Part shown: positions 41,024 through 43,160 of the stretch, piece by piece
Layout: the number at the start of each line of letters is the position of its first letter
Position numbering within the stretch: position 1 is the stretch's first letter
Assembly (NCBI GenBank): GCA_964014485.1
Contig: CAXHAT010000050.1
Location: 1 to 43,160, forward strand
Length of the DNA stretch: 43,160 bases
DNA from: an uncultured Deferribacteres bacterium
Lineage (GTDB): Bacteria > Zhuqueibacterota > Zhuqueibacteria > Zhuqueibacterales > Geothermadaptataceae
Reading direction: 5' to 3'
Position numbers and translations under genes: made by a program
Notes under the pieces: generated by a model
What the model was told of the DNA's origin: nothing
What the model saw: only the letters and a program-made list of their open reading frames with translations
Database searches by the model: none

Positions 41024-41261
41024 GGAGTGCAAGGCTTGCCTTGCTTTTCAAGACAGGCTTTGACTGAGCCCCGCGTTTCGCAACGCTCTTGACCGTGTTT
41101 TCAGTAGTTGAGAGGCAAAGCAAGCTTTGCACTCCAATGCCTTTTCCGGAGTGCAAGGCTTGCCTTGCTTTTCATGACAGGCTTTGACCGGATCCCCTAC
41201 GCTTCGCAATGCTCGTGACCGTGTTTTCGGCGTTTGAGAGACAAAGCAAGCTTTGCACTCC
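41024..41261. repeat. Two tandem ~112-bp REP-doublet units
   Basis: Units 41024-41135 and 41148-41261 each read GGAGTGCAAGGCTTGCCTTG ... CAAAGCAAGCTTTGCACTCC, with homologous spacers. Confidence 0.88.
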
Positions 41262-41319: not shown

Positions 41320-41655
41320 ATGAACTGGCTTTCCAATCTGCCGCTCTGGCAAATCATCCTGCTCGCCGCGCTTGCCGTGGGCCTCGCCATCTTGGCCGTC
41401 TGGCTGCTCCGCCGCAAATTCGATTTTGCCGGGATCACCCTCGGCGCACCGTTCGTCTCAGCGAAATTCGACGTGAAAAAAGACGATGCGGAAGACGAAC
41501 CGCCCGCCGGAATCGCGCAAGACATGACCGCGACCAACGACGGCGAAATTGACGACGCCGCGCAGGACGCCGAGGGCGAAAACATCCGCCAGAACATGAA
41601 AGCCGACGGCGGCAAAATCAAGGGGGCGCGGCAAAATGCCCGATCAAACGATTGA
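41320..41655 (+). CDS. 111-aa membrane protein with two C-terminal pseudo-repeats (candidate amyloid-motif effector/adaptor)
   Basis: N-terminal TM helix (WQIILLAALAVGLAILAVWLL-RRK), acidic linker, and repeats IAQDMTATNDGEIDDAAQDA and IRQNMKADGGKIKGARQNA. ATG 41320 follows GGGGA; the longer ORF call starts inside the REP. Confidence 0.8.
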   Translation: MNWLSNLPLWQIILLAALAVGLAILAVWLLRRKFDFAGITLGAPFVSAKFDVKKDDAEDEPPAGIAQDMTATNDGEIDDAAQDAEGENIRQNMKADGGKIKGARQNARSND

Positions 41656-43160
41656 AACCCGACCGCCGATCAGCGACGTTTACCGCGAACGCCTGAGCTA
41701 CTTTGTCGGGCGGAAAAGTCAGCGCGCGGCCTTCGACGCCATGTGGACGCAAAACGAGGCCTGGCTCATGGCCTATATTGGCGCCAGCGGCCACGGCAAG
41801 TCTTTCCTGCTCAATTATCTCGCGGAATTTCACTGCAAGCCGCAGAAGATTCCCTTTGTGCTCATCGATCTGCACTCCCCGATTTTGCACGGCGACCCCT
41901 TCGCGCTGGCCGCCCGACTTGGCGCGGAATTGCGCCCGTTTTTGAAGGACAAGAACTGGCGCGCCTTTGAAAAACAGCGCAGAGCCGTGCAAAGCGATCT
42001 TGCCAACCGGCGCGCACAAATTACACAAAATATTCACGCTGAGGGGAGCGGGCGAATTGAAAATGTGGCGCAGAACGCCCGTGTTATGCTCGAAATTGAA
42101 GACGTCGCCTACCACCGCCTCGCCGACGTACTGCTGGAATGCGCCGCCGACCTGCCCGACGAGCGCATGGTTTTCTTTTTTGACACCTACGAAATGATGC
42201 AGCGCTCCGGCAACGCCGCCCTCTCCGGCTGGCTCTGGGATCGCGTTTTTGAAAACCTCTGGCTTGATAAACCGGAAATACGCGTCGTGCTCGCCTCGCA
42301 AGACGCGCTGGAATCCGACGCGCTCAAAACGATCACTCCCGCCGCCGTGCCGGGATTTTTGCCCGAGGAAACCCGCGCCCTGCTGCAAAAGCACCGGGTT
42401 GAAGAACAAAAACTCACCGACGCCATCCAGCGTTTTACCGGCGGCCACCCTTTGTTGGTGGAAATGGCCGGGCAAGAGGCGCAGGCGGGACGCTTGCAAG
42501 CTCACGAAATTGAAAAGGCGATTTTGGCAAAAAAGGAAGCGGACGAATGGCTGTTTGCGCACGTGATGGAGCGCCTGCCGAAGGCCTTGCAGCAGGCCGC
42601 GCAATGGGCCGCCCTTCTGCGCGGGTTTAACCACGACAGCCTGAGCCGATTGCTCGAACCCTTTGAAATTAAGCTCGACGAACCGCAGTTCCGCCGCCTT
42701 GAACGCATGAGTTTTGTCCTGCGCGACGCCGGGCGCTTCCGCTGCCACGACCTGATCCGCCACATGCAGCACCGCCGCCAGAGTGAACGCCGCCCGGAAA
42801 CCCTGCGCGACTTTTACCAACGCGCCAAAGCCTACGCCGAGGAACGCACCCGCGGCGAAAACGGCCAACTTGACGCCATGTACTACAATTTTGTGCTGGA
42901 GGAAGACCAGGCTCACGGCGTTTGGCAAGAGGCGGTGGACGACGCGCAGGGCAACTGGCGGCGGGAACGGTGGGGGCAATTGATTGGCGTTGGCAAAGAC
43001 GCGGGGCCCTTGCTGCGGCGGGCGACGCACGCCGATATTCAACACCGGCGAGGAAAATACCTCTATTATCAAAACCGTTGGAATGCGTCGCTGGAAGCGC
43101 ACAATGCGGCCCTCGCGCTTTTTCGCGCCGTCGGTGATCGCCTCGGCGAAGCCAACACGC
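41636..43160 (+). CDS. STAND/NLR-type P-loop NTPase with TPR repeats (runs off window; absent from the ORF track)
   Basis: Manual translation of frame 2 is open to the window end: FVGRK, Walker A GASGHGKS, Walker B VFFFDTYE, RVVLAS, GxP motif TGGHPLL, MHD-like CHDLIR, and TPR start ALALFRAVGDRLGEANT. Confidence 0.92.
   Translation, partial: MPDQTIETRPPISDVYRERLSYFVGRKSQRAAFDAMWTQNEAWLMAYIGASGHGKSFLLNYLAEFHCKPQKIPFVLIDLHSPILHGDPFALAARLGAELRPFLKDKNWRAFEKQRRAVQSDLANRRAQITQNIHAEGSGRIENVAQNARVMLEIEDVAYHRLADVLLECAADLPDERMVFFFDTYEMMQRSGNAALSGWLWDRVFENLWLDKPEIRVVLASQDALESDALKTITPAAVPGFLPEETRALLQKHRVEEQKLTDAIQRFTGGHPLLVEMAGQEAQAGRLQAHEIEKAILAKKEADEWLFAHVMERLPKALQQAAQWAALLRGFNHDSLSRLLEPFEIKLDEPQFRRLERMSFVLRDAGRFRCHDLIRHMQHRRQSERRPETLRDFYQRAKAYAEERTRGENGQLDAMYYNFVLEEDQAHGVWQEAVDDAQGNWRRERWGQLIGVGKDAGPLLRRATHADIQHRRGKYLYYQNRWNASLEAHNAALALFRAVGDRLGEANT

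What the first reader, a model, noticed from the sequence alone, without database searches (positions are those of the whole stretch)
42020..42079. The matching motif lies inside the NTPase domain, between Walker A and Walker B, not at the NLR N-terminus
Seen in the sequence: only about 22 residues precede FVGR, so there is no N-terminal effector or motif. R0 occupies residues 129-148, flanked by helical-looking segments (WRAFEKQRRAVQSDLANRRAQ and EIEDVAYHRLADVLLE). That would put it at the tip of a helical-hairpin insert. In the amyloid-signalling NLRs I know of, the motif is N-terminal. Inference: inserts from each ring subunit would converge on the oligomer axis and stack into a nucleus, which would be a different display geometry. 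I cannot confirm from sequence alone that this is undescribed.
Basis: partly seen in the sequence, partly recalled or inferred. Interest (0 to 1): 0.82.

Follow-up and report, generated by a model that had tools for sequence, protein, structure and literature searches.

The report
Partner-matching motif inside NLR ATPase domain
A bacterial immune-type sensor carries, inside its ATPase engine, a copy of the 21-residue tag that its small membrane-protein neighbour carries twice, which suggests a new way for such sensors to switch on a cell-killing partner.

Summary
Bases 42020-42079 encode residues 129-148 of a STAND/TPR NTPase. They lie between Walker A (49-56) and Walker B (179-186), and an in-frame stop 12 codons above the start rules out any N-terminal domain. 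The gene overlaps by 20 nt a 111-aa protein that has one membrane helix and two 21-residue tail repeats, both matching this segment.

This is a family trait. About 94 cluster representatives carry a Gln/Asn/Ser/Ile-rich segment at the same site. Their Walker A-to-B spacing is about 131 residues, against about 65 in the nearest solved relative.

A profile built only from NLR inserts, run over all 82,112 ORFs of the genome, finds the small neighbour first and the NLR second. Nothing else scores below E 1. Eleven of 14 receptor/partner pairs from two phyla match significantly, and cognate pairs beat non-cognate ones.

AlphaFold puts the segment at the lower-confidence tip of a long helical hairpin. 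This is topologically the position of the Apaf-1 ISM hairpin, which lines the apoptosome pore.

Best reading (about 0.5): an NLR/effector pair coupled by amyloid-like templating, with the receptor motif displayed from inside the NOD. The published sources I read place that motif at the NLR N-terminus. Amyloid formation and axial convergence remain inferred.

The parts
41320..41655 (+). Partner gene: 111-aa protein with an N-terminal membrane helix and two 21-residue C-terminal repeats. Its last 20 nt overlap the NLR start.
   Evidence: ORF and translation. Orthologues of 110-112 aa stand immediately upstream of the NLR and overlap its start in three related genomes.
41344..41427 (+). Predicted transmembrane helix of the partner (residues 9-36).
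   Evidence: AlphaFold2 helix 9-36, block pLDDT 94-97. Only weak Pfam hits, to membrane-region families, all below cut-off.
41512..41574 (+). Repeat R1 of the partner (residues 65-85), net charge -7.
   Evidence: First domain hit of the NLR-derived profile. Q67 and Q82 are invariant in four orthologues.
41581..41643 (+). Repeat R2 of the partner (residues 88-108), net charge +5.
   Evidence: Second domain hit of the NLR-derived profile. Q91 and Q105 are invariant. It gives the best local alignment to NLR 129-149.
41636..43160 (+). STAND (NLR-like) NTPase with a TPR sensor, cut by the contig end after residue 508. A near-identical full-length protein has 671 aa.
   Evidence: Foldseek matches to PH0952 (6mfv), MalT, Apaf-1, NRC, CED-4 and Avs3 at E 2e-7 to 1e-4. 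The C-terminus continues on contig C213, reverse strand.
41780..41803 (+). Walker A (P-loop), residues 49-56.
   Evidence: G49, G52, G54 and K55 are invariant in 67 aligned family members.
41948..42043 (+). First arm of the helical hairpin (residues 105-136).
   Evidence: AlphaFold2 secondary structure.
42020..42079 (+). R0: the internal copy of the partner's repeat (residues 129-148). It spans the end of arm 1, the loop 137-143 and the start of arm 2.
   Evidence: Q131 and Q146 are invariant among the closest relatives.
42065..42145 (+). Second arm of the helical hairpin (residues 144-170).
   Evidence: AlphaFold2 secondary structure.
42170..42193 (+). Walker B strand, residues 179-186 (Asp183).
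   Evidence: D183 is invariant in 67 sequences. Strand 178-183 in the model.
42443..42451 (+). GxP motif of the helical domain (G270-H271-P272).
   Evidence: G270 is invariant; H271 and P272 are nearly invariant.
43031..43160 (+). Start of the TPR array (from about residue 466).
   Evidence: TPR_12 scores 79.4 bits against a cut-off of 30.1 on the full-length twin, residues 466-538.

Best explanation
This is a two-gene receptor/effector module of the NLR kind, most likely a cell-death or abortive-infection device.

The components:
- The receptor is a STAND NTPase with a TPR sensor and no N-terminal output domain.
- The effector is a 111-aa single-pass membrane protein. Its cytoplasmic tail is two 21-residue repeats: R1 is acidic and R2 is basic.
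- The receptor carries a third copy, R0, at the tip of a long helical hairpin. The hairpin is inserted between strand 2 and the Walker B strand of the NOD. This is the topological position of the ISM helix-loop-helix that lines the central pore of the apoptosome.

Proposed mechanism:
- At rest, R0 is held as a loosely structured hairpin tip, and the partner's tail is disordered.
- Ligand binding to the TPR array and nucleotide-driven ring assembly bring the hairpin tips of neighbouring subunits together around the ring axis.
- The clustered R0 copies adopt a beta-rich, amyloid-like stack. This stack templates the R1-R2 tail of the partner.
- The partner then polymerises and damages the membrane.

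Shown here: the shared motif, its internal position, its conservation across the family, its co-variation with the partner, the operon layout and the predicted hairpin.

Inferred: ring formation, axial clustering, the cross-beta state and membrane damage.

My odds: about 0.75 that R0 is the receptor-side coupling element for the partner, and about 0.5 for the whole amyloid-templating mechanism.
For: (1) Position. R0 (129-148) lies between Walker A (49-56) and Walker B (179-186), and no N-terminal extension is possible.

(2) Family trait.
- 97 of the 151 stored homologues have Walker A starting within residues 26-60, so they have no N-terminal domain.
- 93 of 94 rows carry at least 15 residues in the R0 slice.
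- The Lys-to-Asp spacing has a median of 131, and 85 of 87 values fall in 120-148. It is about 65 in PH0952/6mfv and 83 in Apaf-1.

(3) Composition of the insert against the rest of the NOD: Q 2.2x, N 2.0x, S 1.7x, I 1.6x, L 0.5x, P 0.5x. Dyrka et al. report largely the same bias for bacterial amyloid signalling sequences.

(4) Conserved positions in the family profile are spaced by two: hydrophobic, x, hydrophobic, x, Gln, x, hydrophobic, x, Ala; then a Gly-Gly turn; then Ile...Ser, x, Gln, x, Val, x, Ala. The information-content power is 2.87 at period 2 against 1.73 at the helical period.

(5) Partner.
- All three close orthologous loci in the same order (G159, G150, G148) have the same upstream membrane protein with two repeats, overlapping the NLR start.
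- In Anaerolineae, partners of the same design stand upstream of NLR homologues.

(6) Specificity. The NLR-derived R0 profile finds only the partner and the NLR among 82,112 ORFs of the genome. Among 845 ORFs of 22 loci, all 23 hits at E of 1 or less are either NLR inserts (12) or upstream partner ORFs (11).

(7) Co-variation.
- In 11 of 14 cognate pairs, at most 6 of 1000 shuffles reach the observed score.
- With one representative per lineage (9), the cognate sum is 333 against a permuted mean of 231 (sd 26). Only 6 of 20,000 permutations reach it.

(8) Structure.
- The NLR model has mean pLDDT 91.8. The hairpin is helices 105-136 and 144-170, with the tip at block pLDDT 63-72.
- The partner's tail is non-helical and of low confidence, with a short beta hairpin at 81-92. 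This is as expected for a tail that is disordered until templated.

(9) Complex test. I folded three partner tails plus NLR residues 116-162. The verdict was 'weak support': score 0.43, best of 3 controls 0.01.
- The mark was reached by 116 of 157 solved complexes and 2 of 215 mismatched pairs.
- At 0.60 or under it was reached by only 18 of those 157 solved complexes, and by both mismatches that passed.
- The runs agree in at least 91% of contacts, and the partner's pLDDT is at least 56.
- My own alignments were used, and the job is unlike the calibration set.

(10) Geometry precedent. The Apaf-1 ISM hairpin between Walker A and B forms the ring around the central pore (PMC5050015, passages).

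(11) Functional precedent. Bab/Agp in E. coli pairs a 109-aa protein with a sensor protein. The small protein has an N-terminal hydrophobic helix and a C-terminal amyloid motif. The pair acts in abortive infection (preprint 10.1101/2024.11.07.622273, abstract and one section).
Against: - AlphaFold models part of R0 as helix (129-136 and 144-148), not as strand, although with lowered confidence.
- Hydrophobicity periodicity is equivocal: 8.59 at period 2 against 7.90 at the helical period.
- Two loci have an adjacent upstream ORF with no significant match: L028, 589 of 1000 shuffles; L030, 756 of 1000. One more is marginal: L029, 50 of 1000.
- For four homologues (loci L048-L051, which include the L028 and L030 genes) I found no matching ORF within the 6-18 kb fetched, yet they keep an insert at this site. 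The insert may therefore also have a partner-independent role.
- The NLR-derived profile misses 5 of 16 candidate partner ORFs at E of 1 or less.
- Subunits of a ring are related by rotation, not by the translation of an amyloid stack. A beta-annulus or plain docking would fit the geometry as well.
- The complex prediction gives only weak support.
- No fibril, toxicity or expression data exist.
- I chose the partner ORFs for the 14-pair test by eye, because they carried tail repeats. This could inflate the match rate, though not the cognate-versus-non-cognate contrast.
Confidence: 0.5

Rival explanations
1. Homotypic docking without amyloid. The partner's two repeats imitate the hairpin tip and bind the receptor by ordinary protein contacts. 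These could be beta-augmentation, a beta-annulus at the pore, or helical packing against the hairpin. Binding could recruit the membrane protein to the assembled ring. Alternatively, it could hold the receptor at the membrane in the resting state. In this reading there is no templated, self-propagating fold.
For: - R0 is modelled partly helical inside a well-folded hairpin.
- Ring symmetry favours closed assemblies over open stacks (inference).
- The complex prediction places the NLR piece against the partner tails but gives no fold type.
- The hydrophobic periodicity does not separate helix from strand.
Against: - The partner's tail is not predicted helical.
- The conserved positions are spaced by two residues, with Gln pairs and a Gly-Gly turn.
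- The Q/N/I-rich, L/P-poor composition and the 21-residue double repeat are hallmarks of known amyloid signalling motifs.
Confidence: 0.3
2. The insert is first of all a structural element of this STAND clade: an elongated ISM-like hairpin used for oligomerisation or regulation. The partner's tail merely descends from it by duplication, or binds it as a regulator. The similarity then has no role in signalling to an effector.
For: - The insert is present in nearly all family members, including some for which I found no matching partner.
- The ISM hairpin has a structural role in the apoptosome.
Against: - Co-variation of R0 with the partner repeats across lineages and phyla argues for selection on the match itself.
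- The match is kept in all three repeats at the same conserved positions.
- The partner always carries a membrane helix or a helical domain with a hydrophobic N-terminus, as effectors do.
Confidence: 0.12
3. The resemblance is a chance or compositional effect between two Gln/Gly-rich stretches, and the small ORF is not a gene.
For: - The motif is short.
- The whole-protein shuffle test is only moderately significant: 26 of 2000.
Against: - The genome-wide profile search singles out exactly these two ORFs among 82,112.
- The small ORF is conserved with the same architecture in two phyla.
- Its membrane helix is modelled at pLDDT above 90.
Confidence: 0.03

Closest known systems
HET-S / NWD2 of Podospora anserina (HRAM-type amyloid signalling)
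   Same: - The effector carries two pseudo-repeats and the NLR encoded by the adjacent gene carries one; one search says this of HRAM motifs, and the 21-residue repeat length in HET-s is recalled.
- The effector has a membrane-targeting N-terminal part.
- The tail is disordered until templated (the HET-s side of this point is recalled, plus the passage).
- R1 and R2 carry opposite charges in the four closest systems. This recalls the salt-bridge ladders of the HET-s solenoid (recalled).
   Different: - The receptor copy is not at the N-terminus but inside the NOD, at a hairpin tip between Walker A and B.
- The linker between R1 and R2 is 2 residues, against 6-15 in HRAMs.
- The NOD is of the AAA_16/MalT-like kind with TPR, not NACHT-WD.
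- No sequence relationship to HRAM was tested.
Bell-domain / NLR gene pairs with BASS1-10 (Dyrka et al. 2020, preprint 10.1101/2020.01.06.895854; outline and sections 7, 9 and 20 read)
   Same: - Collinear, often overlapping gene pairs.
- A motif of about 25 residues at the effector's C-terminus.
- Q/N/G/V/I-rich and L/P-poor composition.
- Some motifs occur as two pseudo-repeats on the effector and once on the NLR.
- NB-ARC/TPR-type receptors.
   Different: - Their screen compared Bell C-termini with NLR N-termini of Pfam NB-ARC/NACHT proteins only. An internal motif in a NOD that fails those Pfam models would not have been seen.
- The window's partner is a bare membrane helix plus tail, not a Bell domain.
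- The phyla here are Zhuqueibacterota-like and Chloroflexota. That paper emphasises Actinobacteria and Cyanobacteria.
Bab/Agp (BASS11) abortive-infection system of E. coli (Ibarlosa et al. 2024 preprint; abstract and one section read)
   Same: - A small effector of about 109 aa with an N-terminal hydrophobic helix and a C-terminal amyloid motif.
- A TPR-containing sensor is encoded by the adjacent gene.
- The role is cell death on phage infection.
   Different: - Agp carries its motif at residues 2-25 and is not a STAND NTPase (TPR-GreA/B-C-PIN).
- Here the sensor is a STAND NTPase and the motif is internal.
- A defence role is not tested here.
ISM (initiator-specific motif) helix-loop-helix of Apaf-1 and other STAND/AAA+ initiators
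   Same: - A helix-loop-helix between Walker A and Walker B.
- In the heptameric apoptosome these hairpins form a picket fence, and the connecting loop lines the central pore (PMC5050015).
   Different: - The hairpin here is much longer: arms of 32 and 27 residues, and about 45 more residues between the Walker motifs than in Apaf-1.
- Its tip carries a conserved Gln-rich motif shared with another protein.
- Structural equivalence was not tested by superposition.
PH0952 (PDB 6mfv) and MalT: STAND NTPases with TPR-type sensors
   Same: - Best fold matches: 6mfv_A at E 1.9e-7 and MalT 8bob_C at E 4.3e-7.
- 6mfv is the only solved relative found by sequence (E 5.3e-5).
- Same NOD-TPR layout, and the NTPase starts near the N-terminus.
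   Different: - In 6mfv the spacing from Walker A to Walker B is about 65 residues, against 128 here.
- These proteins lack the long insert.
- No motif-sharing partner is known for them (recalled).

Membership tests
STAND NTPase (NLR-like NOD) | Walker A GxxxxGK[ST] and Walker B hhhhD | tested here: met
   Residues 49-56 and 179-183. G49, G52, G54, K55 and D183 are invariant in 67 aligned members.
STAND NTPase (NLR-like NOD) | NBD, helical domain (GxP motif) and winged-helix fold like solved STANDs | tested here: met
   G270 is invariant, H271/P272 nearly so. Foldseek probability is 1.00 to 6mfv, MalT, Apaf-1, NRC2/3/4, CED-4 and Avs3, at E 2e-7 to 1e-4.
STAND NTPase (NLR-like NOD) | C-terminal repeat sensor | tested here: met
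   TPR_12 scores 79.4 bits (cut-off 30.1) on the full-length twin P0004.
Pfam AAA_16 / AAA_35 / NB-ARC / NACHT | Score above the family's gathering threshold | tested here: not met
   AAA_35 18.5 bits (cut-off 27). AAA_16 17.5 bits (cut-off 32.6). No NB-ARC or NACHT hit for the window protein. An orthologue reaches 31.9 bits for AAA_16, still under the cut-off. NCBIfam has no family.
NLR-associated amyloid signalling motif pair (BASS/FASS) | A short motif (about 20-25 aa) shared by the products of adjacent collinear genes | tested here: met
   The genes overlap by 20 nt.
NLR-associated amyloid signalling motif pair (BASS/FASS) | Effector-side motif at the C-terminus | tested here: met
   R1 is residues 65-85 and R2 is 88-108 of 111.
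NLR-associated amyloid signalling motif pair (BASS/FASS) | Receptor-side motif at the N-terminus of the NLR, upstream of the NOD | tested here: not met
   R0 is at residues 129-148, between Walker A and Walker B. Only 22 residues precede the NOD, and an in-frame stop lies 12 codons above the start.
NLR-associated amyloid signalling motif pair (BASS/FASS) | Composition enriched in Q, N, G, V, I and depleted in K, P, L | tested here: met
   Insert against the rest of the NOD in 87 members: Q 2.24, N 2.00, I 1.64, V 1.21, G 1.10, L 0.51, P 0.50. K is not depleted (0.99). The reference bias is quoted.
NLR-associated amyloid signalling motif pair (BASS/FASS) | Forms amyloid fibrils or behaves as a prion-forming domain | not testable with these tools
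   Indirect hints only: period-2 conservation, a non-helical low-confidence partner tail, and a weak-support complex.
BASS1-11 sequence families | Match to one of the published motif profiles | not tested
   No BASS profiles are on hand. The logos are figures, and the preprint's supplements were not available to me.
HRAM (HET-s-type) organisation | Two pseudo-repeats on the effector and one on the NLR | tested here: met
   The profile finds two domains in 10 partner ORFs and one in each NLR. The repeat period is 21-23 residues. Sequence homology to HRAM was not tested.
Bell / HeLo-like effector domain | A helical execution domain of about 100 aa with a conserved hydrophobic N-terminal helix | not tested
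   The window's partner has only one membrane helix and a linker. No Bell model is in the libraries. A second partner class in Anaerolineae has a helical domain of about 100 aa. The leads to Pfam HetE-N are weak: E 0.069, below cut-off, and an Atlas cluster in which 12% of members carry it.
ISM-equivalent hairpin of STAND/AAA+ initiators | A helix-loop-helix between strand 2 and the Walker B strand that lines the ring's pore | tested here: inconclusive
   The topological position is met: strand 74-78, helices 105-136 and 144-170, strand 178-183. Superposition on Apaf-1 and the pore location in an oligomer were not tested.

The most novel reading that the evidence does not exclude
In a whole clade of bacterial STAND/TPR receptors, the prion-like nucleation site has moved from the N-terminus into the ATPase domain. 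An elongated ISM hairpin, the element that lines the central pore of NLR rings, carries the templating motif at its tip. Ring closure itself would then build the amyloid seed on the ring axis, and the seed would convert the tail of a membrane effector. This would be a new display geometry for amyloid signalling. It would also tie seed formation mechanically to oligomerisation of the NOD.
Probability: 0.4. Interest if true: 0.85.

Novelty: new variant of a known kind. Interest (0 to 1): 0.72.

Why it matters
Amyloid signalling between NLRs and their effectors has so far been sought and described with the receptor motif at the N-terminus. Genome screens looked only there.

If this reading is right, several things follow.
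- A clade with about a hundred 50%-identity clusters displays the motif from inside the NOD. Such systems are invisible to existing screens, so the known range of amyloid-type signalling in bacteria is an underestimate.
- The range would extend to new phyla. The close relatives here include a Candidatus Zhuqueibacter record and Anaerolineae MAGs.
- It gives a direct structural hypothesis for how oligomerisation creates a seed: pore-lining hairpin tips are brought together. This is hard to study with flexible N-terminal tails.
- The system is small, two genes with a 111-aa effector, so it should be tractable for reconstitution.

Tried and rejected
A closer alignment worked and gave 5 loci. Two of these were Streptomyces proteins matching only residues 178-435, and I did not use them further.
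It gave one useful locus (L034, NLR cut after about 70 residues) and two ABC-transporter false positives.
- A profile search of 401 sampled Actinomycetota genomes found nothing at E of 1e-30 or less. The tool notes that an empty answer shows nothing.
- NCBIfam has no family for either protein.
- PADLOC gave only a generic TPR model and a weak mad8 hit (E 0.0043) for the NLR, and nothing for the partners.
- Pfam on the partner proteins gave only sub-threshold hits.
- I looked for partners of four homologues in wider flanks and found no ORF with a matching tail.
- Sequencing runs: no RNA holder is listed. I did not lay reads.
- The search of earlier findings found nothing for this place or these sequences. 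The word search returned only N-terminal-motif cases in other genomes.
- Three literature searches for the ISM/apoptosome point returned nothing before a fourth found PMC5050015.
- The model's coordinates are not readable in the script box. I could not measure solvent exposure of the tip or superpose it on Apaf-1.
- A programmed-frameshift fusion of the two ORFs was considered and rejected. The genes overlap in the four closest systems but are separated by 17 to about 420 nt in Anaerolineae.
Full report
**What is at the coordinates**

Window 42020-42079 (+) encodes 20 residues. These are residues 129-148 of an ORF that starts at ATG 41636 and runs off the end of the window. The window is a whole contig, C50, of an 8.4-Mb draft genome.

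The protein has a Walker A motif at residues 49-56 and a Walker B strand at 179-186 (Asp183). It has a GxP motif at 270-272 and TPR repeats from about residue 466. Twenty-two residues precede FVGR. The reading frame opens only 12 codons above the ATG (ORF name), so there is no room for an N-terminal domain or motif.

A near-identical full-length protein of 671 aa exists in the protein collection. Its C-terminus is encoded at the end of contig C213. The assembly therefore broke inside the TPR array. The complete protein is NOD plus TPR (TPR_12, 79.4 bits) with no further domain.

**The partner**

A 111-aa ORF (41320-41655) ends 20 nt inside the NLR gene.

AlphaFold2 gives it one confident helix, residues 9-36 (block pLDDT 94-97). 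The rest is a non-helical, low-confidence tail with a short beta hairpin at 81-92.

The tail holds two 21-residue repeats: R1 at 65-85 (net charge -7) and R2 at 88-108 (net charge +5). Both align best to the same NLR segment, 129-149. For the whole small protein, 26 of 2000 shuffles reach the score. For R1 alone, 0 of 2000 do.

The three copies share two glutamines 14-15 residues apart: Q131/Q146 in the NLR, and Q67/Q82 and Q91/Q105 in the partner. These are invariant among the closest relatives.

**A family trait, not a local oddity**

An exhaustive phmmer search found 515 cluster representatives at E of 0.001 or less. Of the 151 homologues I stored, 97 have Walker A starting within residues 26-60. 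The clade as a whole therefore lacks an N-terminal domain.

In their alignment every member shows a Gln/Gly/Ser-rich segment at the same place. Of 94 rows, 93 have at least 15 residues in the slice.

The distance from the Walker A lysine to the Walker B aspartate has a median of 131, and 85 of 87 values fall in 120-148. It is about 65 in the closest solved relative, PH0952/6mfv. It is 83 in Apaf-1, from K160 to D243.

Compared with the rest of the NOD, the segment is enriched in Q (2.2x), N (2.0x), S (1.7x) and I (1.6x). It is depleted in L and P (0.5x). Dyrka et al. report largely this bias for bacterial amyloid signalling sequences.

In the family profile the conserved positions alternate with period two on both sides of a Gly-Gly turn. 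The information-content power is 2.87 at period 2 against 1.73 at the helical period. Hydrophobicity alone is equivocal, at 8.59 against 7.90.

**Partners elsewhere**

A profile search of the 167 genomes of the window's phylum gave 12 with a match at E of 1e-10 or less. Only G000 and three genomes of the same order (G159, G150, G148) have the full N-terminal NOD.

All three carry the same 110-112-aa membrane protein with two repeats, overlapping the NLR start. Public records place these relatives near Candidatus Zhuqueibacter, and one further homologue in an Anaerolineae MAG.

Samples of Chloroflexota gave 8 of 401 genomes, and samples of its class Anaerolineae gave 12 of 401, with matches at E of 1e-30 or less.

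In these loci I found upstream partners of the same design. L019, L027, L038, L039, L040 and L041 have one or two membrane helices. L029, L037 and L042 have a soluble helical domain of about 100 aa with a hydrophobic N-terminus. A metagenome locus, L034, has the membrane-type partner, but its NLR is cut.

**Tests of the match**

(a) I built a profile HMM from the insert slice of 93 NLR representatives, excluding the window's twin and its two nearest relatives. I ran it over all 82,112 six-frame ORFs of 50 aa or more in the genome.
- The small upstream ORF ranks first (E 0.029, two domains that equal R1 and R2).
- The NLR ranks second (E 0.074).
- Nothing else scores below E 1.

(b) I ran the same profile over 845 ORFs of 22 loci.
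- All 23 ORFs with E of 1 or less are NLRs hit at the insert (12) or upstream partner ORFs (11).
- Ten of the partners have two domain hits.
- It misses 5 of 16 candidate partners: L028, L029, L030, L040 and L042.

(c) I scored the NLR slice against the last 56 residues of the partner for 14 pairs.
- In 11 pairs at most 6 of 1000 shuffles reach the score.
- L029 is marginal (50 of 1000).
- L028 and L030 show no match (589 and 756 of 1000).
- With one representative for each of 9 lineages, the sum of cognate scores is 333 against a permuted mean of 231 (sd 26). Only 6 of 20,000 permutations reach it.
- Lineage-specific variants of the second half of the motif appear in both the receptor and its own partner (printed).
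- Caveat: I picked the partner ORFs by eye. Close relatives are not independent, which is why I used the one-per-lineage test.

**Structure**

The AlphaFold2 model of the 508-residue window protein used 67 aligned sequences. It has mean pLDDT 91.8 and pTM 0.88.

Its best Foldseek matches are STAND NTPases: PH0952 6mfv (E 1.9e-7), MalT 8bob (4.3e-7), Apaf-1 1z6t (8.7e-7), then NRC2/3/4, CED-4, Sr35 and Avs3.

Between strand 74-78 and the Walker B strand 178-183 the model has short helices at 82-102. It then has a long hairpin: helix 105-136, loop 137-143 and helix 144-170. R0 spans the last 8 residues of arm 1, the loop and the first 5 residues of arm 2. It has the lowest confidence of the folded part, with block pLDDT 63 and 72 against above 90 on either side.

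The segment is not modelled as strand.

In the human apoptosome the helix-loop-helix between Walker A (157-162) and Walker B (D243/D244) is the ISM motif. The seven copies form a picket fence, and the connecting loop (residues about 204-222) lines the central pore (PMC5050015, passages read). The insert here is at the same topological place but is about 45 residues longer. That its tips gather on the axis of an oligomer is an inference. I could neither superpose the models nor fold a ring.

**Complex test**

I folded three copies of the partner tail (58-111) with NLR residues 116-162. The verdict was 'weak support': score 0.43, best of 3 controls 0.01.
- The mark was reached by 116 of 157 solved complexes and 2 of 215 mismatched pairs.
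- At 0.60 or under it was reached by only 18 of those 157 solved complexes, and by both mismatches that passed.
- The runs agree in at least 91% of contacts, and the partner's pLDDT is at least 56.
- My own alignments were used, and the job differs from the calibration set.

This raises my odds that R0 and the tail touch. It says nothing about the fold they adopt.

**Interpretation**

The layout matches the known NLR/effector amyloid-signalling design (HET-S/NWD2, Bell/NLR BASS pairs, Bab/Agp) in these respects:
- adjacent, often overlapping genes;
- an effector with a membrane-targeting N-terminus;
- a C-terminal double repeat on the effector and a single copy on the receptor;
- Q/N-rich composition with period-two conservation.

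The exception is the place of the receptor copy.

My best reading is that oligomerisation clusters the hairpin tips. The clustered R0 copies then template the partner's tail, and the partner polymerises and damages the membrane. I put 0.75 on R0 being the coupling element and about 0.5 on the full amyloid mechanism.

The main rival (0.3) is homotypic docking without a self-propagating cross-beta fold. The partly helical model of R0 and the rotational symmetry of a ring both allow it.

A second rival (0.12) is that the insert is mainly a structural ISM-like element. It draws on four homologues with an insert but no matching partner in 6-18 kb of flank.

Chance is excluded for practical purposes.

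**Comparison with the literature**

Dyrka et al. (2020 preprint) screened C-termini of Bell proteins against N-termini of neighbouring Pfam NB-ARC/NACHT proteins (sections read). The NOD here fails those Pfam models, so the screen could not have found this arrangement.

A 2025 methods paper and an August 2026 review both state that the motifs sit at NLR N-termini and effector C-termini (passages).

My searches found no description of an internal receptor-side motif. These were, plus passages from two comparative-genomics papers and a 2026 Avs preprint. The preprint's supplementary tables were not available to me and could list such pairs among unclassified ones.

I therefore rate this a new variant of a known kind. 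It is of clear interest to people working on NLRs and functional amyloids, with the mechanism still to be shown.

Noticed in passing
window 41024-41137 and 41148-41261: Two tandem copies (88% identical) of a palindromic element of about 114 bp lie just upstream of the partner gene. Each folds into a long hairpin as RNA (-56.6 and -39.7 kcal/mol). BLAST finds 35 and 30 full or partial matches across many contigs of the genome. This looks like a REP/MITE-like repeat family.
   Followed up: partly
contig C213 of G000, reverse strand, just after the NLR stop: If C213 follows C50, as the full-length twin protein implies, the next two ORFs look by eye like a nucleotidyltransferase/HEPN-type pair. 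I ran no family scan on them. Such pairs often sit in defence islands.
   Followed up: no
L029 (partner rc 990-1457), L037:2-373, L042:509-1060: A second class of partner replaces the bare membrane helix with a soluble helical domain of about 100 aa that has a hydrophobic N-terminus, followed by the same two tail repeats. There are only weak leads to Pfam HetE-N: E 0.069, below cut-off, and an ESM Atlas cluster in which 12% of members carry HetE-N. Similar 150-aa hypothetical proteins occur in Chloroflexota, Cyanobacteriota and Actinomycetota clusters. It may be a Bell/HeLo-like execution domain.
   Followed up: partly
L033, L043, L045, L046 (Anaerolineae NLR homologues): Sister subfamilies carry a different, longer insert at the same site between Walker A and B (spacing 156-162 residues in the three measured, L033, L043 and L046; L045 was judged by eye). 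It is rich in Gly, Leu, Val and Ala and has no Gln-rich motif. I saw no motif-sharing partner, though L033 has only about 200 nt of upstream sequence. The site may be a general display platform in this clade.
   Followed up: no
L038 (oriented 814-1092, 1096-1374, 1378 onward): The first 282 bp or so of the NLR gene, with its upstream leader, is present three times in tandem. The first two copies end in a stop after the P-loop. The two-helix partner gene lies upstream of the triplication.
   Followed up: no
L042/L047 (G575:C168): The NLR homologue is split into two frames right after the start of its insert. This is a frameshift or an assembly error. Its helical-domain partner upstream is intact.
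   Followed up: no
L031/L048 (G351:C235): Two NLR paralogues of this family stand in tandem. Each has its own insert sequence, and I found no partner on the 6.3-kb contig.
   Followed up: partly
window R1 41512-41574 and R2 41581-41643; L001, L003, L004, L027: R1 is acidic (-3 to -7) and R2 basic (+2 to +6) in all four Zhuqueibacter-type partners; L027's first repeat is acidic (-3) and its second looks basic by eye. In several Anaerolineae partners the charges are near neutral, and in L034 they are reversed. Opposite charges at stacked positions would fit a two-layer solenoid with salt-bridge ladders.
   Followed up: partly
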